Below are positions 16,229 to 23,070 of a stretch of 24,220 bases of DNA, one piece after another. The DNA comes from an uncultured Candidatus Saccharibacteria bacterium (lineage in GTDB: Bacteria; Patescibacteriota; Minisyncoccia; UBA6257; GWB1-50-10): positions 1-24,220 of the forward strand of contig CAZUMB010000002.1 in the NCBI GenBank assembly GCA_964621575.1, read 5' to 3'. Numbering within the stretch: the stretch's first letter is position 1; every line of letters starts with the position of its first letter. The notes under the pieces are model-generated. The model was not told the origin of the DNA, did no database searches, and saw only the letters and a list, made by a program, of their open reading frames with translations. Both the position numbers and the translations under genes were made by a program.

Positions 16229-17263
16229 TCAACTAAGCATTATAAACTCCCGGCTTCGCGATTCCAAGCTGACGTAAGCAAAGCCGGTAACAATCAAAAG
16301 TTTGAACATAAGGAAAGCAACGAGCTCCGGGATAAAGTAAAGGAAAAAAGCGATGCCTCTCGCCGAGAAAAAGAACAAAACGGCGAGGACGACGCTGAAA
16401 ACCGACTTCGTCGCCGGCGGAATCCCGTCAACGTAATCTTTGACGATTCTGAAAACTTCCGCGTTCATTTTGCTTTTGGGATTCAACGGTCCAAAGATTT
16501 TCTCGGCCTGCCCCTGAAGAGTCAGGGAAATTTCGCCGATTATTTTTTCCTGCTCGGCCAGCAAAAGTTTCTCGAACTCGACCGCCGCCTGCTCGCCGCC
16601 GCTTCCTACCTTTATTTTCCGAAGTTCGTCCCCGGCAATATCCCGGAAAAACTCATCAACCGTACCGTCAAAGGAAACGTCCGCGAGAACGATTCTCACT
16701 ATCGGTTCGGAAGCGGCGAGCGCGTCGTTGACGAGACGCCTCGAAAAACTCTCGTTAAAACCGCCCCAGACGAAATAAGTGAGATAAAACTGGAAAGAAA
16801 AAGCAATGAGAAGACCGGCTACCGCCCGGCTCAAAATACCCTTGGCGACCGGGAAAAATCGGACGGTCAGACCGTTTGCGATATTCTCTCTCCCTCTTGA
16901 GGCCGCCGCGGCGAGAAAAATGAAAAAAAGACCAATCCCGACAATAAGCAAAACCGATGGGGAGGGAAAAAGTCGTTCGATAAAAAGAAGGAGGGGCGCA
17001 AGCGCCTGAATCAGAGAAAGAATTATGATTTTCGCCCGGCTCTTCGTAAAGAAAACCTGAAGAACAAACAAGGCGAGAAAAACGAAGGTGAAGATAACGC
17101 TGCCCAGCAGCCGCGTGAGATTCCCCTCGATAAGGAATTTATCAAAGAGAAAAAACGACAGAAAAACCGAGCCGGCGCCCAGCACCGCCAGAATCAAAAC
17201 TTTCCAAAAACTCCTGTCTTCCTCGGATTCTTCCGACCGCTTAATTACCGTCGGGTTTGCCAT
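16229..17263 (-). CDS. Multi-pass membrane protein of unknown function
   Basis: 344 aa, about 6 N-terminal hydrophobic helices, a soluble helical region, further C-terminal TM segments; overlaps the dnaK 3' end by 23 nt. Confidence 0.85.
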
Positions 17264-19094
17264 CTTTCTGATTATACAAAACCTGACCTATTTTTTGGAG
17301 CTCGGCGGAGAGTTCGGCCGTTGCTTTCTTTATCGCTTCGGCATCACCGCTTTCCATGATTTTCTTCAGGTTTTCCGACTTATCACCGACGCTTTTTTTA
17401 ATGTCGGCCGACACCTTATCGCCCGCGTCCTTCAAGCTCTTCTCGGAAAGATAGACGAGCGACTCGGCCTGATTCTTCGCGTCAATAAGCTCTTTCTTTT
17501 TCTGGTCCTCGGAAGCGTGTTCGGCCGCTTCTTTTCTGAGCCGTTCCACTTCCTCCTTGCTCAAGCTGGTAGTCGCTTCGATTCTCACCGATTGGCTTTT
17601 GTTGGAGGCCTTATCGGTCGCCTTGACGTTTAAGATGCCGTTGGCGTCGATATCGAAGGCAACCTCAATTTGAGGCACACCCCGCGGCGCGGGCGGAATG
17701 CCGTCCAAAATGAAACGAGCGAGAGTTTTGTTGTCGACGGCCATCGGCCGCTCGCCCTGTAAAACATGAACTTCAACCGAGGTCTGGTTGTCGGCGGCAG
17801 TCGAGAAAATCTGGGTTTTGCCGGTCGGAACGGTGGTGTTCTTTGAAATCATCGGTGTCGCCACGCCGCCTAATGTTTCAATCGACAAACTAAGCGGCGT
17901 CACGTCAAGAAGAAGAACGTCTTTGACGTCGCCCTGAAGAACGCCCGCCTGGACGGCGGCGCCGACCGCCACCACTTCGTCGGGATTGATACCCTTGTGC
18001 GGCGCCTTGCCGAAAACTTTCTGGACGGCCTCCTGAATCGCCGGCATCCGCGTTTGGCCGCCGACCAAAACTATTTCATCGATGTCGGAAAACTTGAAAC
18101 CGGCCCCCTTGGGTGGAGCGGTGGTAACGGTTTCCTCAACGAGCTTGATCGATTTTTCAATAAGGTCTTTTACCAAATCCTCAAGCTTGGCCCGGGTAAG
18201 CTTCATTAAAAAGTGCTTGGGGCCCGAAGAATCGGAAGAAATGTAAGGAAGGTTGATTTCGGTTTCAAGAACGGTCGAGAGTTCGTGCTTGGCCCGTTCG
18301 GCCGCCTCCTTCAAGCGCTGGAGGGCCAGAGCATCCTTGGAAATGTCCATCCCTTCCCGTTTCTTGAACTCCTTAACGAGATACTCGATAATCCGCCGGT
18401 CGATATCGTCGCCGCCCAAATGCATGTCGCCGCCGGTCGCTTTCACCTCAACCGTTCCATCGCCCACTTCCAGTACCGAAATGTCAAAAGTGCCGCCGCC
18501 GAAGTCGTAGACGACTATTTGTTCGTTTTTCTCCCTGTTTAAGCCGTAAGCGAGGGCCGCCGCCGTCGGTTCGTTGATGATGCGGCGGACTTTGAAACCG
18601 GCGATCTCACCGGCGTTTTTGGTCGCCTGCCGCTCGGAATCGTCAAAATAAGCCGGCACGGTTATGACTGCTTCCTCTATTTTCTCGCCCAAAGCGGCTT
18701 CGGCGTCGGCTTTCATTTTCTGCAGGACCATCGCCGAAATTTCTTCCGGTTTGTACCATCCGCCGGCCGGCGGATCGGCCATCTTCATTTCGACGCCGCC
18801 CCGGTCCGATTCCTTCATCTCGAAGGGCAACCACTCCCGGTCGTGAACCACCTCTTTATCGCCCCACTTCCGGCCGATCAGTCGTTTAACCGAAGAAATC
18901 GTGTTCTGGGGATTCACCACCGCCTGCCGCTTGGCAAGAAGACCAACGAGGCGCTCGCCCGACTTCGAAATGGCCACGACCGACGGCGTCGTCCGCGCCC
19001 CTTCGCTCGACTCCAAGACTCTCGGCTCGCCACCTTCAACGACGGCCATCGCCGAGTTCGTCGTCCCTAAATCTATTCCTAATATCTTTGACAT
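17241..19094 (-). CDS. dnaK: Chaperone DnaK (Hsp70)
   Basis: [65 protein letters not shown]. Confidence 0.98.
18758..18775. repeat. Perfect 18-bp palindrome inside dnaK
   Basis: atccgccggccggcggat; covers the codons for DPPAGG. Confidence 0.85.
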
Positions 19095-19096
19095 AG

Positions 19097-19124
19097 TTGT
19101 TAGTGTTTAGTTGTTAGTTTTTAG
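19097..19124. repeat. Heptamer tandem repeat across the grpE stop / dnaK start
   Basis: ttgttag tgtttag ttgttag tttttag. Confidence 0.8.
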
Positions 19125-19631
19125 TTGACCTTTGGATAAGTTGACTCTTGCCGGTCTTATCACCCTGCCGTTCAAAGCATAACCCGGTTCGATTTCTTCC
19201 GTTATCTTCCCGGGCGGCTCGGCCGATTCCACCTCGCCTAAACCCTCATGAAGCGCCGGATTGAAATCGTCGCCCGGCTTTACGGCAATCTTCTCCAACC
19301 CGTATTTCTTGAGCGTGTCCTCGAGCTGACTCCTGATAAGCCGCATTCCTTTTTCGGCCGGGTTATCGTCTTTGAGTATCGTTATCCCCAAGTCAAAACT
19401 GTCCAAAACCGCGAGTAATTCCAAAATGAGCGACTCGTTGGAAAGTTTTGCGAATTCCTGAAACCGTTCGGCCTCTTCCTTCCTGTAATTTATGAAATCG
19501 GCCTTGGCCCGTTTCCAGCCGTCCAAATATTCATCCCGTTCTTTTTCGCACTTTTCCAAACCCTTCTTCAGCTCTTCCCCCGTTTTTTTATCTCGTTTCT
19601 TTTCCATCCCGTTGGAAATTTGACCTTTCAT
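19107..19631 (-). CDS. grpE: Nucleotide exchange factor GrpE
   Basis: RAKADFINYRK, LLAVLDSFD, FNPALHE, GYALNGRVIRPARV. Confidence 0.96.
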   Translation of the reverse strand: MKGQISNGMEKKRDKKTGEELKKGLEKCEKERDEYLDGWKRAKADFINYRKEEAERFQEFAKLSNESLILELLAVLDSFDLGITILKDDNPAEKGMRLIRSQLEDTLKKYGLEKIAVKPGDDFNPALHEGLGEVESAEPPGKITEEIEPGYALNGRVIRPARVNLSKGQLKTNN

Positions 19632-19634
19632 TTT

Positions 19635-20330
19635 TTAAAACTCTCTTTCAAGCGACCTTAAAACGCCGAGCGATTTTTCATAATCCATTCTCTTCGGCCC
19701 TATCACCATCACGAAGAAATCCTGATTGGCCGGCCGGAGACGGTCGACCATAACCGCAAGGTGAGGACTTCTCGTAATCCGGTTGCGGCCCAGGAAAACC
19801 TGCGGCCACTCCTCCTCGCCGCGCCACTTCTCCGCCGTTTTCATAAGCCGGCTCGAAAGATTTTCGAAATCGTCGACCACTTCCAAAATCTCGTCGCGGT
19901 CGGTAAGGGCAAGACACTCGAGCATGTTTTTGAAACCGCTTTTCATGAACCAGTCGGTTTCCGGCTCATAACCGACGCTCAAGGCCTTAAGATACCCGGC
20001 CATGTTCTCAATCAGCCGAGCTCGCTCGCCCTCAAAAAAGCTTTCAATCAAATTTTCAAACCGGCCGAATGTTCTTCCGCTCTCTTCTCTTTCTAAAAGC
20101 TCCCTGATAAAAAGGCGGTAGGCCTTGTCGGTCGGAATCCGGCCGCCGGAGGGATGATTCTGATAAAAATAGCCGTCTTCACCCAAAGCGCAAAGCTCCG
20201 CTCTTATCATCGCCGGTTTAATGCCGAAATCGTACTTCTCGAAAAGCGACTCGGAAGTGGCCGGCCGGCCGGTCAAAATGTAATCCCTGATAGCCGTATC
20301 CAAAACGAGTTTCGTTCTCTCCTTAAGCAT
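19635..20330 (-). CDS. hrcA: Heat-inducible repressor HrcA, shortened form
   Basis: N-terminal wHTH with YI.TG.P..S and GRIPTDKAYR; C-terminal VIGPKRMDY; first gene of grpE-dnaK with a CIRCE upstream. Confidence 0.88.
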   Translation of the reverse strand: MLKERTKLVLDTAIRDYILTGRPATSESLFEKYDFGIKPAMIRAELCALGEDGYFYQNHPSGGRIPTDKAYRLFIRELLEREESGRTFGRFENLIESFFEGERARLIENMAGYLKALSVGYEPETDWFMKSGFKNMLECLALTDRDEILEVVDDFENLSSRLMKTAEKWRGEEEWPQVFLGRNRITRSPHLAVMVDRLRPANQDFFVMVIGPKRMDYEKSLGVLRSLEREF

Positions 20331-20338
20331 TAGGAGAA

Positions 20339-20366
20339 ATTATATTTCAGCACTCAAGTTTGTCAA
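20339..20366 (-). promoter_or_regulatory. Consensus sigma70 promoter of hrcA
   Basis: TTGACA (20366-20361), 16 nt, TATAAT (20344-20339), 8 nt before the ATG. Confidence 0.85.
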
Positions 20367-20373
20367 GTGCCAA
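20347..20373 (-). promoter_or_regulatory. CIRCE operator
   Basis: TTGGCACTT-N9-GAGTGCTGA versus consensus TTAGCACTC-N9-GAGTGCTAA (3 mismatches), overlapping the -35 and spacer. Confidence 0.88.
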
Positions 20374-20377
20374 TTTC

Positions 20378-20518
20378 CCCCGAGCGGAGCGAGGTTGGAA
20401 AATTGAGCATCCCGCCGGAGGCGGGGATACAGTTTCAGTAATGTAATTCTTCGCTACGCTCAGAATAAAGGTTTTGTTCCTGAAATTTGTTCGGTTCTGT
20501 CTCCAAATTTCAGACAAA
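20378..20518. repeat. Cluster of short intergenic repeats and hairpins
   Basis: ccgagcggagcgagg (20380-94), cccgcc-gga-ggcggg (20411-25), cttcgctacgctcag (20449-63), hairpin ctgaaatttg/caaatttcag (20480-20513). Confidence 0.7.
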
Positions 20519-20523
20519 GCCCT

Positions 20524-21297
20524 TTACGGGCAGGCGGCGGTGGAGGTGGCGGGGTTGCCGGAGTTATCAAGATAAAACTTGAAACAGGACCCGCCGGGCG
20601 CGACGAAGATAATGCCGGCCGAGGAACTGGCAAAACCGATGTCGCCGTTCGATTTAAGCCTCACGGCCGAAACCGGCCCCGTCCCGATTCCAACCTTCCC
20701 CGAAAAGTAGGCATCTTTCCAGTTATAGGACGAGTTGCCAAGATCGTAGGAATCACTGGAATTCGGCAGGATGCTCGAATCGAATGTCGCCGCCGAAATT
20801 TTCGTCACCGCCGTCCGGAGAGTCCGCACCGCCTGGGCCTGGGGATTAGTCGCGTTGAATTCGAGCGTCAGGTCAACCTGAACGATGGTCGGTCCGCCGG
20901 GATTTTCATATTTCGTGACCAGGAAATTGTTGACCGTGACATTCGAATCGGTAAGGGCTTGAGCGCCTCCTTCGCCTTCCTGAAGATAAATGGCGGTATT
21001 CCCGTCATCAACATAAACGAGGGTCGGGTCGAGAGTGGACGAGGCCATTCGTAATTTAAGCGTCGTCGTTGCTTCACCGGCCTCCATATCGACTAAGCTT
21101 GCCTCTCTCACCAGCCGCTGAATGACCTTGTCGACGAACGTGATTTGGGCATTCACTTCGTTCACCGACGACTGCCGGCTCTGGACCCGGGTAATGGCCA
21201 TTAAAATCCCCACCAGAAAAACGGCGCTTACCGCGAAGATAACCGTGTAAATCAAAACTTCAACTAAGGTGAATCCTTCCCGGGACTTATAATTCAT
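20524..21297 (-). CDS. Type IV pilin-like protein (prepilin N-methylation domain) with C-terminal extension
   Basis: Start re-called at ATG 21297: MNYKSREG|FTLVEVLIY, a class III signal with Glu at +5 and a hydrophobic helix. Confidence 0.88.
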   Translation of the reverse strand: MNYKSREGFTLVEVLIYTVIFAVSAVFLVGILMAITRVQSRQSSVNEVNAQITFVDKVIQRLVREASLVDMEAGEATTTLKLRMASSTLDPTLVYVDDGNTAIYLQEGEGGAQALTDSNVTVNNFLVTKYENPGGPTIVQVDLTLEFNATNPQAQAVRTLRTAVTKISAATFDSSILPNSSDSYDLGNSSYNWKDAYFSGKVGIGTGPVSAVRLKSNGDIGFASSSAGIIFVAPGGSCFKFYLDNSGNPATSTAACP

Positions 21298-21303
21298 GTT
21301 TAC

Positions 21304-21317
21304 GTTATAATTATAAC
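21304..21317. promoter_or_regulatory. Palindromic bidirectional -10 element
   Basis: gttataattataac is a perfect palindrome giving TATAAT on both strands, within a 24-nt gap between divergent ATGs. Confidence 0.7.
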
Positions 21318-21321
21318 ATTC

Positions 21322-23070
21322 ATGAATAGAAACAAAACGATCCAAATTGTTTTGCTGTTCGCGATTCTTGGCATCTCTTTCGGACTAATGTGGAACGCCG
21401 CCAAACTCGAGACCGCCATTTTCGACGAAACTGCTCACATCCCCGCCGGCTACGGCTACCTAAAATATCTCGATTACCGCTTGAACCCCGAGCACCCGCC
21501 GCTCGTAAAGGCGCTTTCGGCCATTCCTCTCGTCTTCATGGACCTCAATTTCCCCCTGGGCCACCCGGCCTGGACCGATGACGTAAACGGCCAGTGGGAA
21601 ACCGGCAGCCAGTTCTTTTACGGCGTAGGGAACGACGCCGACAAACTGGTTGCCAATTCCCGGATTTTTCCGATAATCCTCACCCTCCTTACCGTAATTT
21701 TGATTTTCGTCTGGTCGCGCGAACTTCTGGGAAACTGGTGGTCGCTTCTGCCCGCTTTTCTTTTCGGTCTCTCGCCGACCGTTCTCGCTCACGGCCACTA
21801 TGTTACGACCGACGTCGGCGCCGCCCTGGGCGTTCTCTTTGCCGTTTTTGGCTTCACTAAGTTTCTTGCAAAACCGAAAACCGGTACTGTTCTCCTTGCC
21901 GGTTTTGCTTTGGGCATCGCTCTTCTTGCCAAGTTTTCCAACAATCTCCTTATCCCCTACTTTATAATTCTCGCCGCCGTTTATTTTGTCTTTCTGAACC
22001 GCAAAAACTTTTTTAAATATTTGAAGGGTGTCGTCGGAATATTTCTGATTGCTCTCGTTTTGATTTACGCCGTCTATTTTGTCTTCACTTTTAATTACCC
22101 GGCGGAGCGGCAGCTCTCCGACGCAACCGCCACTTTGAGCGGCTTTACACCGCGCTCTCTCGCCGATTTCGACATTGCTCTCATCGAAAATCCGGTTCTC
22201 CGACCCATCGGTCAATATCTTTTCGGCGTCCTCATGATTCTCCAGCGGGCCTCGGGCGGCAACACCGCTTACTTTTTAGGCGAACTCTCGGCCAACGGCT
22301 GGTGGTATTACTTCCCCGTCGTCTTTCTTCTTAAGGAGCCGTTGCCGTCCCTGATTCTGATTTTTCTCGCTCTCGGCCTCGGCCTCCGGAAAATTTTAAA
22401 AACTAAAAACTATAAACTAAAAACTATAAATAACTACCTCGGCACCCACTTCCCCGAATTCGCGATGCTCCTTTTTGTCGTCATCTACTGGGCTTACAGC
22501 ATTCAAAGCTCCTTGAATATCGGCGTCCGGCATCTTCTACCTACCCTTCCTTTCATTTATATTCTCTCGACCGGGGCCGTAAAGTCGTGGTTTTCAAGCC
22601 ATAAAACGGCCGGGAAATCCGCCTTCATAAGCGTTCTCCTTGTTTGGTTTATTGCCGAAACCGCCATTGTCTCTCCGCACTTCCTCTCTTATTTCAACGA
22701 GCTCGGCGGCGGCACGAAAAACGGCTACGCTCTGGTAACCGACTCCAATTACGACTGGGGTCAGGATTTGAAATTCCTGAAAAAATTCGTTGACGAAGAA
22801 AATATAAACAAAATCGCCGTCGACTATTTCGGCGGCGGCAGTCCCAAGTATTACCTTGGCGAAGAAAAAGTGGAGAATTGGTGGTCGGCCCGCGGCAACC
22901 CGAAAGACATCGGCATTGAATGGCTCGCCGTATCCGCGAACACCCTCGAGGGCGCCTGGGCTCGCCTTGATCCTGACCTCGAGCGCAAATCCGAAGACGA
23001 GTACTCTTTCCTTCGCGGTATAAAACCCTACGCCCGCGCCGGCGCTTCAATATTCATTTACAAATTCTAA
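21322..23070 (+). CDS. GT-C fold glycosyltransferase (ArnT/PMT-like, GT39/PMT_2 family)
   Basis: First-loop acidic motif FDETAH, NPEHPPLVK, many TM helices, LAKF, GVRHLLP, DSNYDWGQD. Confidence 0.85.
   Translation: MNRNKTIQIVLLFAILGISFGLMWNAAKLETAIFDETAHIPAGYGYLKYLDYRLNPEHPPLVKALSAIPLVFMDLNFPLGHPAWTDDVNGQWETGSQFFYGVGNDADKLVANSRIFPIILTLLTVILIFVWSRELLGNWWSLLPAFLFGLSPTVLAHGHYVTTDVGAALGVLFAVFGFTKFLAKPKTGTVLLAGFALGIALLAKFSNNLLIPYFIILAAVYFVFLNRKNFFKYLKGVVGIFLIALVLIYAVYFVFTFNYPAERQLSDATATLSGFTPRSLADFDIALIENPVLRPIGQYLFGVLMILQRASGGNTAYFLGELSANGWWYYFPVVFLLKEPLPSLILIFLALGLGLRKILKTKNYKLKTINNYLGTHFPEFAMLLFVVIYWAYSIQSSLNIGVRHLLPTLPFIYILSTGAVKSWFSSHKTAGKSAFISVLLVWFIAETAIVSPHFLSYFNELGGGTKNGYALVTDSNYDWGQDLKFLKKFVDEENINKIAVDYFGGGSPKYYLGEEKVENWWSARGNPKDIGIEWLAVSANTLEGAWARLDPDLERKSEDEYSFLRGIKPYARAGASIFIYKF
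22399..22436. repeat. Heptamer tandem repeat (WAAACTA x4-5) inside the glycosyltransferase
   Basis: aaaacta aaaacta taaacta aaaacta taaataa; encodes KTKNYKLKTINN. Confidence 0.8.

What the first reader, a model, noticed from the sequence alone, without database searches (positions are those of the whole stretch)
20524..20800. Type IV pilin-like protein fused to a phage-tail-fibre-like C-terminal module
Seen: after a pilin-like domain ending ...LRTAVTKISA, about 85 more residues read ILPNSSDSYDLGNSSYNWKDAYFSGKVGIGT...CFKFYLDNSGNPATSTAACP, with a terminal Cys pair. The P..xYDLG....W...Y and GxVGIGT patterns resemble beta-stranded trimeric tail-fibre/adhesin repeats (from recall, not a search). 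Established: CPR bacteria use type IV pili for host attachment. Inference: a pilus-tip adhesin determining host specificity.
Basis: partly seen in the sequence, partly recalled or inferred. Interest (0 to 1): 0.65.

Follow-up and report, generated by a model that had tools for sequence, protein, structure and literature searches.

The report
Pilin carrying a phage-fibre-like tip
An ultra-small (Patescibacteria) bacterium encodes a pilus subunit whose complete pilin body is followed by a short piece that matches the far end of phage tail fibres; relatives keep the same pilin and junction but swap in other fibre ends, lectins and fibre-folding chaperones, so this looks like a pilus-borne version of a phage's host-recognition fibre.

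Summary
The gene (20524-21297, minus strand, 257 aa) is a prepilin. Its pilin fold ends at residue about 171 and is most like GspJ/XcpW-type minor pilins. The last 89 residues are an added module, not a pilin beta-domain. They comprise an invariant AATFDS junction, one copy of a fibre repeat (P..D..YDLG....W...YFSG), a GxVGIGT segment, and a 35-residue three-stranded cap with two nearly invariant cysteines.

The repeat occurs up to 27 times in large proteins that match phage tail-fibre and tailspike families. It is 42% identical over 38 residues to the C-terminal end of a Klebsiella phage tail protein.

Across 80 related loci the pilin and junction are constant, but what follows ranges from 72 to 619 residues. 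It includes lectin, phage tail-collar, discoidin and dockerin domains, and the S74 and G2 trimer-folding chaperones of phage spikes.

The window's own short form is not hypervariable. It defines one large clade and is about as conserved as the pilin. The tip-adhesin reading is therefore plausible but inferred, and host specificity is not shown for this clade.

This is a new variant of the known "modular pilin" kind. Trimer modelling could not be run.

The parts
20524..21297 (-). Whole gene: 257-aa prepilin-type modular pilin (stop codon at 20524-20526)
   Evidence: ORF and translation. There are 193 full-length homologues at E<=1e-3, mostly 250-280 aa and named prepilin or pseudopilin by their sources.
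21274..21297 (-). Class III (prepilin) leader MNYKSREG, with predicted cleavage after Gly8
   Evidence: Pfam N_methyl 23 bits against a cut-off of 21.2. Gly8 is >=90% conserved and Glu13 (+5) invariant. A prepilin peptidase gene is present in the genome.
20794..21273 (-). Pilin module, residues 9-168: long alpha1 helix (11-65) plus a beta-sheet head of the GspJ/XcpW/PilW type
   Evidence: AF2 pLDDT is about 90 over this part. VIA-align gives TTHA1219 Z 10.3, XcpW Z 9.9, S. sanguinis PilB pilin module Z 8.4, EpsJ Z 8.2 and GspJ Z 7.9, all ending at model residue 170-171.
20776..20793 (-). Invariant junction AATFDS (residues 169-174) between the pilin and the added module
   Evidence: A169, A170, F172 and D173 are invariant in 117 sequences. 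The junction is kept in nearly all 80 loci whatever follows it. pLDDT is below 50 in the monomer model.
20701..20775 (-). One copy of the fibre repeat (residues 175-199, pattern P-x2-D/N-x3-D-L-G-x5-W-x3-Y-F)
   Evidence: It is repeated up to 27 times in large proteins that match End_tail_spike positions ~128-155 and PHROG tail fibre/spike families. It is 42% identical over 38 aa to the C-terminal end of phage FBKp24 tail protein gp105. Shuffle control. P178, G187 and W193 are invariant.
20632..20700 (-). GxVGIGT segment (residues 200-222), with an indel hotspot just before it
   Evidence: The same motif precedes the S74 chaperone in relative L049 and recurs in the long relatives' modules. 348 inserted residues across homologues fall after residue 199.
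20527..20631 (-). Cap (residues 223-257): three-stranded beta-sheet ending in Cys-Pro. Cys238 (20584-20586) and Cys256 (20530-20532) are a probable disulfide.
   Evidence: pLDDT is about 90 with strands 228-232, 238-243 and 249-254. Both Cys are >=90% conserved. The cap is specific to this pilin family, with no significant match elsewhere. The disulfide is inferred, not measured.
21298..21321 (.). 24-bp divergent intergenic region shared with the GT-C (PMT_2) glycosyltransferase gene at 21322-23070 (+)
   Evidence: ORF map and PMT_2 hit E 8.5e-10. The same divergent neighbour is present in 16 of 80 related loci. Its promoter function was not tested here.

Best explanation
The gene encodes a modular type IV minor pilin.

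Shown:
- It has a prepilin leader and a complete GspJ/PilW-like pilin module (residues 9-168).
- An invariant AATFDS junction follows, then an 83-residue module built from two sequence elements typical of phage tail-fibre ends (the P..D..YDLG....W...YF repeat and a GxVGIGT segment) and a small Cys-bonded beta cap.
- The genome holds a full type IV pilus machinery and a prepilin peptidase elsewhere.
- Relatives keep the pilin and junction but carry other fibre ends, lectins and trimer-folding chaperones.

Inferred:
- PilD cleaves the leader after Gly8.
- The pilin module enters the priming (tip) complex of the pilus, as GspJ/PilW-type subunits do, perhaps as an alternative to the operon-encoded paralogue.
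- The flexible junction then lets the fibre-like module project from the pilus tip, where it binds a conserved ligand on the surface of the partner (host) cell or a substrate.
- Because the repeat and the relatives' S74 and G2 chaperones belong to obligate homotrimeric fibres, the module may fold only as a trimer, as in the CofB/TcpB tip pilins. That would explain its low monomer confidence.
For: - Prepilin motif.
- Pilin fold ending at residue 171, with GspJ/XcpW/EpsJ and modular PilB as top structural matches.
- Machinery in the own genome (pilM, pilB, pilT, pilC, pilD, a major pilin and four minor pilins on contig C5). The window protein is 36% identical over 61 aa to one of those minor pilins.
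- Fibre nature of the module. The nearest ESM Atlas clusters, by features and by structure, are all viral (Uroviricota), though the scores are lead-level only.
- Same pilin and junction with Laminin_G_3 + Collar, F5/8-C, Dockerin, Laminin_G_3 + Peptidase_S74 and Peptidase_G2 in relatives.
- Three relatives lie directly upstream of pilM-pilB-pilT.
- Junction and repeat have low pLDDT as a monomer, while the cap is confident.
- Precedents: modular pilins, including a pilin-S74 architecture in Wolfebacteria (PMC8179133); the CofB trimer at the pilus tip (PMC6048534); and Saccharibacteria PilX2, which has a C-terminal domain and is needed for host binding (PMC11623550).
Against: - No binding, localisation or expression data exist.
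- The gene is an orphan, away from the pilus operon. It sits between a glycosyltransferase gene and hrcA-grpE-dnaK.
- A GspJ-type subunit is normally present once per tip in a heterotrimer, which conflicts with homotrimerisation.
- The window's module has only one repeat and no chaperone domain. It is small for a binding domain and gave no fold match.
- Within its clade it is as conserved as the pilin, which is not what a host-range determinant under diversifying selection usually shows.
- Single-copy matches to solved fibres are marginal (E 0.001-0.013).
Confidence: 0.6

Rival explanations
1. The module is structural rather than an adhesin. It is a minimal fibre stub that caps or primes the pilus (an initiator, as with TcpB/CofB), or that serves as a docking platform for a separate secreted or fibre protein. 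It does not bind the partner cell itself.
For: - The module is short, has one repeat, and is as conserved as the pilin.
- In phage fibres this repeat is a shaft element, not the binding tip.
- CofB acts as an adaptor for secreted CofJ (PMC8179133 discussion; PMC6048534).
- The CP-cap has been stably inherited in one large clade.
Against: - Relatives place recognised binding domains (lectin, discoidin, tail collar) at the same position.
- No partner gene is conserved next to it apart from a glycosyltransferase and the heat-shock operon.
Confidence: 0.2
2. The pilin part is used only as a membrane anchor, or as part of a short pseudopilus (type II secretion- or competence-like). The fibre stub is then displayed at the cell surface or within the wall, not on a long pilus.
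For: - The fold and weak NCBIfam hits are to type II secretion pseudopilins (GspJ, XpsI).
- The gene is an orphan outside the pilus operon.
- A 147-aa protein (P0259) joins the same junction and module to a plain N-terminal hydrophobic segment with no pilin head.
Against: - Glu+5 and the cleavage-site Gly are conserved, as expected for subunits that polymerise.
- Some relatives sit beside pilM-pilB-pilT.
- All NCBIfam hits are far below their cut-offs.
Confidence: 0.12
3. The resemblance to phage fibres is a chance or compositional artefact, and the tail is just a lineage-specific extension of the pilin beta-domain.
For: - Pfam finds no fibre family directly in the protein.
- Fold searches with the isolated module found nothing.
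Against: - No hits in the shuffled and reversed controls, against 648 real domains.
- 42% identity over 38 aa to a phage tail protein's terminus.
- All pilin structures stop aligning at residue 171.
- Relatives at the same junction carry unmistakable fibre domains.
Confidence: 0.03

Closest known systems
Modular type IV pilins (S. sanguinis PilB with vWA and PilC with lectin; the InterPro survey of 264 architectures that includes pilin + Peptidase S74 in Candidatus Wolfebacteria) - PMC8179133, PMC9934059
   Same: A small pilin module is linked by a short loop to a grafted module. The PilB pilin module is a top structural match (Z 8.4). Relatives of the window protein have the pilin-S74 architecture listed in that paper.
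   Different: No domain signature in Pfam, NCBIfam or PHROGs detects the module here. It is a minimal fibre end (one repeat plus cap). The family shares an invariant junction behind which modules are exchanged. The paper read the S74 case as a peptidase, not as a fibre-folding chaperone.
Distal ends of phage tail fibres and tailspikes (endosialidase-type stalk, Pfam PF12219 End_tail_spike positions ~128-155; Klebsiella phage FBKp24 gp105; cyanophage fibres, PDB 8i4m; tailspike 6eu4; T5 pb1, PMC4690869)
   Same: The same P..D..YDLG....W...Y motif is followed by a short C-terminal cap. Relatives add the Collar, S74 and G2 domains.
   Different: The module is fused to a pilin instead of a virion-attachment domain. 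It has one repeat only and no chaperone domain. The setting is chromosomal and housekeeping, not a prophage. The trimeric state is unknown.
CofB / TcpB, the homotrimeric tip minor pilins of type IVb pili (PMC6048534, PMC5207764)
   Same: Both are minor pilins with beta-rich C-terminal domains joined by a flexible linker. In CofB/TcpB a homotrimer at the tip primes assembly and mediates binding. That is the working model for how a trimeric fibre module could sit on a pilus.
   Different: There is no sequence or fold match. The pilin class differs (type IVb against GspJ-like). Trimerisation of the window protein is untested.
GspJ/XcpW/PilW core minor (pseudo)pilins of the I-J-K tip complex (PDB 3nje, 2ret, 3ci0; PMC12918778)
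   Same: Best fold matches to the pilin module (Z 7.9-9.9). Glu+5 is present.
   Different: NCBIfam GspJ models score far below their cut-offs. The gene is not in an I-J-K gene order. It carries an extra C-terminal module.
Saccharibacteria PilX1/PilX2 minor pilins with C-terminal accessory domains (PMC11623550)
   Same: These are Patescibacteria minor pilins with an added C-terminal domain. PilX2 is needed for host binding.
   Different: Their accessory domains are a jelly-roll and a beta-propeller, not fibre-like. They lie in pilus loci and belong to a different class of Patescibacteria.

Membership tests
Type IV pilin / prepilin (class III signal peptide) | Short leader ending in Gly, then a hydrophobic segment with Glu at +5 | tested here: met
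   Pfam N_methyl 23 bits against a cut-off of 21.2. Gly8 is >=90% conserved and Glu13 invariant in 117 homologues.
Type IV pilin / prepilin (class III signal peptide) | Lollipop fold: long N-terminal helix packed on a beta-sheet head | tested here: met
   AF2 helix 11-65 plus strands to residue 166, pLDDT about 90. VIA Z 10.3 to TTHA1219 and 9.9 to XcpW.
Type IV pilin / prepilin (class III signal peptide) | Prepilin peptidase and assembly machinery in the same genome | tested here: met
   PilD, PilB, PilT, PilC and PilM are on contig C5, and a second ATPase/platform pair is on C51.
Type IV pilin / prepilin (class III signal peptide) | Incorporation into a filament | not testable with these tools
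   This needs purified pili or imaging.
Modular pilin (sensu Raynaud et al. 2021) | A complete pilin module followed, via a short linker, by a module that also exists outside pilins | tested here: met
   Pilin matches end at residue 171. The linker has low pLDDT. The repeat occurs in hundreds of non-pilin proteins. The whole module also occurs on a non-pilin N-terminus in P0259.
Phage tail fibre / tailspike stalk (End_tail_spike-type repeat) | Sequence match to the stalk repeat | tested here: met
   There is no direct Pfam hit in the protein itself. The evidence is transitive: the repeat-bearing proteins pass PF12219 (up to 44.6 bits against a cut-off of 25) and PHROG tail fibre/spike families. 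Direct evidence: 6eu4 E 0.001 and 8i4m E 0.013, and phage tail proteins at E ~1e-3.
Phage tail fibre / tailspike stalk (End_tail_spike-type repeat) | Homotrimeric, intertwined beta-helical fold | not testable with these tools
   Only monomer prediction was available. The repeat region has low confidence as a monomer. That is compatible with a trimeric fold but is not evidence for it.
Phage tail fibre / tailspike stalk (End_tail_spike-type repeat) | C-terminal intramolecular chaperone (Peptidase_S74 or G2) | tested here: not met
   Absent from the window protein. Present in relatives L049 (S74, E 1.4e-12) and L055 (G2, E 8.1e-17).
Phage tail fibre / tailspike stalk (End_tail_spike-type repeat) | Encoded among virion genes | tested here: not met
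   The neighbours are hrcA-grpE-dnaK, a glycosyltransferase and cell-wall and division genes. The module occurs only once in the genome.
GspJ / PilW core minor pilin | Family-specific sequence model above its cut-off, and I-J-K gene order | tested here: inconclusive
   Fold similarity Z 7.9-9.9. NCBIfam GspJ models score 15-16 bits against cut-offs of 64-295, and the gene stands alone.

The most novel reading that the evidence does not exclude
A lineage of Patescibacteria (Paceibacteria: Jorgensen-, Brenner-, Harrison-, Wolfe- and Liptonbacteria-type genomes) has turned a GspJ-like tip pilin into a carrier for phage receptor-binding fibres. An invariant AATFDS-plus-repeat junction acts as a splice point behind which fibre ends, lectins and self-cleaving trimer chaperones are exchanged as cassettes, as in phage host-range switching. 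Three pilin subunits would trimerise through the fibre at the pilus tip. The window's gene would be the minimal, fixed version of this device.
Probability: 0.35. Interest if true: 0.8.

Novelty: new variant of a known kind. Interest (0 to 1): 0.55.

Why it matters
How ultra-small episymbiotic bacteria recognise their partner cells is largely unknown outside a few cultivated Saccharibacteria. This family suggests that another large branch of Patescibacteria mounts phage-type recognition modules on pili. It also gives concrete handles for testing: a conserved carrier pilin, a fixed junction, and a catalogue of swapped ends (lectin, collar, discoidin, S74 and G2).

The finding re-reads the published "pilin + S74 peptidase" architecture as a pilin-tail-fibre fusion whose chaperone implies trimerisation. 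That raises a structural question: how does a trimeric fibre sit on a one-start pilus or on a heterotrimeric tip?

For the window's own gene the practical value is more modest. It is the short, conserved member of the family, and a small, tractable target for expression, oligomer measurement and ligand screens.

Tried and rejected
- Sequence search of the whole protein against PDB: no hit.
- Foldseek PDB search with the whole model: only weak pilin hits.
- Foldseek PDB and VIA-align wide search with the isolated C-module model: nothing usable. The model is confident only for its last ~30 residues, so this says little about the fold.
- phmmer of a repeat protein (P0126) against PDB: nothing.
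- Word-index search for longer proteins with residues 169-257: nothing. The exhaustive search shows this was a sensitivity limit.
- tblastn of the cap alone against phages: best E 0.3, not significant.
- Cap-only profile against the repeat proteins: only a family member scored. Two 8-bit matches lie at the extreme C-termini of fibre-like proteins and are not significant.
- The profile hit of the cap to a 99-residue chain of the Listeria monocin structure (9j1k_M, E 0.043) is kept only as a lead.
- Hypervariability of the module within close orthologues: rejected.
- Co-transcription with the heat-shock operon: unlikely, because hrcA has its own perfect sigma-70 promoter overlapped by a CIRCE-like inverted repeat.
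- A prophage setting: rejected from the neighbours.

Full report
**What is there.** The finding lies in a 774-nt gene on the minus strand (21297 to 20524, stop included), giving 257 residues from the ATG. The quoted C-terminal sequence and the two cysteines (Cys238, Cys256) are exactly as described.

The window is a whole 24.2-kb contig of a 564-kb, 97.5%-complete genome. The closest homologues are labelled Patescibacteria, Paceibacterota, Jorgensenbacteria and Brennerbacteria by their sources.

**The N-terminal part is a real pilin.**
- Pfam N_methyl passes its cut-off.
- Gly8|Phe9 and Glu13 (+5) are conserved in 117 full-length homologues.
- AlphaFold2 with that alignment (mean pLDDT 86) gives a helix at 11-65 and a beta-sheet head ending at residue 166.
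- An exhaustive structural comparison puts minor pilins and pseudopilins on top: Thermus TTHA1219 (Z 10.3), XcpW (9.9), the pilin module of the modular pilin PilB of S. sanguinis (8.4), EpsJ (8.2) and GspJ (7.9). Every one of them aligns only to model residues ~40-171.
- The genome has the machinery to process and assemble it. Contig C5 carries pilM, pilB, pilT, pilC, a 130-aa major pilin, pilD and four minor pilins. A second ATPase/platform pair lies elsewhere.
- The window protein is 36% identical over its first 61 residues to one operon minor pilin. It may be an alternative version of that subunit; this is an inference.

**The C-terminal 89 residues are a separate, fibre-like module.** An exhaustive phmmer search with the last 90 residues found 1177 proteins at E<=1e-3. 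The top hits are not pilins. They are proteins of 500-5000 residues in which the first ~40 residues of the query recur up to 27 times (best E 3.8e-58). One example (P0126) is visibly a tandem array of the P-x2-D/N-x3-DLG-x5-W-x3-Y unit.

- As a control, a 26-residue profile made only from the pilin family's segment (leaving out AATFDS) found 648 domains of >=15 bits (maximum 47.9) in 140 such proteins. It found none in shuffled or reversed copies. These proteins had been selected with the same query, so the multiplicity is the informative part.
- The repeat proteins match Pfam End_tail_spike at profile positions ~128-155, several above the curated cut-off. They also match PHROG families annotated as tail fibre or tail spike. 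From my own knowledge, not tested here, that part of the endosialidase stalk is a triple beta-helix just ahead of the chaperone cleavage site.
- Direct links from the window protein are weaker but all point the same way:
  - The family profile hits a solved tailspike (6eu4, E 0.001) and a cyanophage fibre (8i4m, E 0.013) at this motif.
  - tblastn against 50,697 phage records hit nine records. Five rows are annotated tail fiber, fiber or tail protein. The four "hypothetical" rows include the GenBank duplicates of annotated RefSeq records.
  - The C-terminal end of tail protein gp105 of Klebsiella phage FBKp24 is 42% identical (74% similar) over 38 residues, including the F-x-x-S lead-in.
  - The nearest ESM Atlas clusters, by features and by structure, are all viral, at lead-level scores.
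- The GxVGIGT segment that follows is the motif that precedes the S74 chaperone in a relative.
- The final 35 residues form a confident three-stranded sheet with two nearly invariant cysteines. This cap has no significant match outside the pilin family. A marginal profile hit to a 99-residue chain of the Listeria monocin tail structure is only a lead.

**What the family shows.** A pattern scan of one genome per species returned 233 confirmed relatives, of which 80 were kept.
- Reading the ORFs shows a constant pilin module and a constant (R)(I/V)SAATFD junction plus repeat. Behind the junction the modules range from 72 to 619 residues. They include:
  - the window's Cys-Pro cap;
  - a 72-residue cysteine-rich cap;
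  - a ~105-residue cap ending Y-x-W-x-x-I-Y;
  - a cap with L-Y-V-C that is also the end of the FBKp24 phage protein;
  - long fibre-like tails.
- Pfam finds the following in the long tails:
  - Laminin_G_3 plus the phage tail Collar domain (L065);
  - F5/8 type C (L064);
  - Dockerin (L074);
  - Laminin_G_3 plus Peptidase_S74 (L049);
  - Peptidase_G2 (L055).
- PHROGs assigns several of them to tail fibre or tail collar fibre families, with E down to 2e-30.
- S74 and G2 are the intramolecular chaperones of homotrimeric phage spikes and fibres (PMC4690869, PMC8326128). Their presence on the same pilin argues that these modules fold as trimers.
- The pilin-S74 architecture was already listed, for Wolfebacteria, among the commonest modular pilins, and was read there as a peptidase (PMC8179133).
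- Three relatives sit directly upstream of pilM-pilB-pilT.
- In a sample of 200 genomes of the class, 21 besides the window's own had a match at E<=1e-15. Many of these are plain 170-210-aa pilins without the extension. The carrier pilin is therefore older than the fusion (inference).

**Where the window's gene stands in the family.** A maximum-likelihood tree of the pilin modules (68 rows, quick search) places the Cys-Pro cap in one large clade that contains the window gene.
- Within that clade there is one clear replacement (L041).
- Three rows that the script labelled "other" (L021, L025, L071) are in fact Cys-Pro caps by eye.
- The sister clades mix module types among close relatives. One member (L071) combines another clade's stalk with the Cys-Pro cap.
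- Within the close family the module is about as conserved as the pilin: 46-56% against 53-60% mean pairwise identity. There is an indel hotspot after residue 199.
- So cassette exchange is a property of the wider family. The window's version is a fixed, minimal form, which weakens "host-specificity determinant" for this particular gene.

**Setting.** The gene is an orphan.
- In about 30 of the ~42 closest loci it lies just upstream of hrcA-grpE-dnaK on the same strand. In 16 loci a GT-C (PMT_2) glycosyltransferase gene is divergent upstream.
- hrcA has its own perfect TTGACA-16-TATAAT promoter overlapped by a CIRCE-like inverted repeat, so the linkage is positional rather than a shared transcript.
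- The module occurs once in the genome.

**How it most likely works.** Steps that are shown and steps that are inferred are listed under Best explanation. In short:
- It is a PilD-processed, GspJ-like minor pilin that enters the pilus priming complex and displays a fibre-like module from the tip through a flexible junction.
- Whether one copy sits in a heterotrimeric tip or three copies trimerise through the fibre (as CofB does, PMC6048534) could not be tested.
- The low monomer confidence of residues 169-222 fits the trimer idea but does not prove it.
- Experimental precedent for Patescibacteria minor pilins with added C-terminal domains acting in host binding comes from Saccharibacteria PilX2 (PMC11623550).

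**Novelty.** The kind (modular pilin) is known, and a pilin-S74 architecture has been catalogued. A full-text search for Patescibacteria + pilin + tail fiber gave only two unrelated papers. I found no description of three things:
- the family as a whole, with its invariant junction and exchangeable phage-fibre ends;
- the reading of the S74 and G2 domains as fibre chaperones implying trimerisation;
- this minimal Cys-capped form.

I rate it a new variant of a known kind.

**Limits.**
- The genomic context of the large repeat proteins is unknown (closed).
- Single-copy sequence matches to solved fibres are marginal, and the tree is a quick search with many unsupported forks.

Noticed in passing
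window 20339-20373 (-): A perfect sigma-70-type promoter (TTGACA-16-TATAAT) is overlapped by a CIRCE-like inverted repeat (TTGGCACTT-N9-GAGTGCTGA). It lies just upstream of hrcA, so the heat-shock operon has its own regulated promoter.
   Followed up: partly
window 17241-21297; loci L001-L042: The gene order pilin -> hrcA -> grpE -> dnaK, all on the same strand, is kept in about 30 related genomes, down to ~40% pilin identity. It is lost in the more distant relatives that carry other C-modules. The reason for this persistent linkage is unknown.
   Followed up: partly
window 21322-23070 (+): A GT-C glycosyltransferase gene (PMT_2) is divergent from the pilin gene with only 24 bp between the start codons. 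The same neighbour is present in 16 of 80 related loci.
   Followed up: partly
protein P0259 (147 aa): The same junction and Cys-Pro module sit directly on a plain N-terminal hydrophobic segment with no pilin head. The module can therefore exist on a different anchor.
   Followed up: no
locus L071:3531-3830: A chimeric C-module: it has the stalk sequence typical of the clade whose caps end in Y-x-W-x-x-I-Y, but ends in the Cys-Pro cap of the window's clade. This suggests exchange of caps alone.
   Followed up: partly
locus L041:1176-1538: At the orthologous locus (glycosyltransferase - pilin - hrcA - grpE - dnaK), the Cys-Pro module is replaced by a 121-residue module with a P-S-F-T-F-G-x-D-T-x-x-G-I motif and a cysteine-rich end. 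The same motif is inserted in L042 and present in L064 and L080.
   Followed up: partly
genome contig C5 (locus L081) and C46 (locus L082): C5 holds a complete type IV pilus cluster: pilM, two small membrane genes, pilB, pilT, pilC, a 130-aa major pilin, pilD and four minor pilins. C46 holds two tandem ~195-aa pilin paralogues. A second ATPase/platform pair is on C51.
   Followed up: partly
locus L084:3971-4246 (Klebsiella phage FBKp24 gp105): The phage tail protein ends with the fibre repeat followed by a ~45-residue cap containing L-Y-V-C. This is the same cap type as in pilin relatives L076, L077 and L080. Whole repeat-plus-cap ends are therefore shared between phage fibres and this pilin family.
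   Followed up: partly
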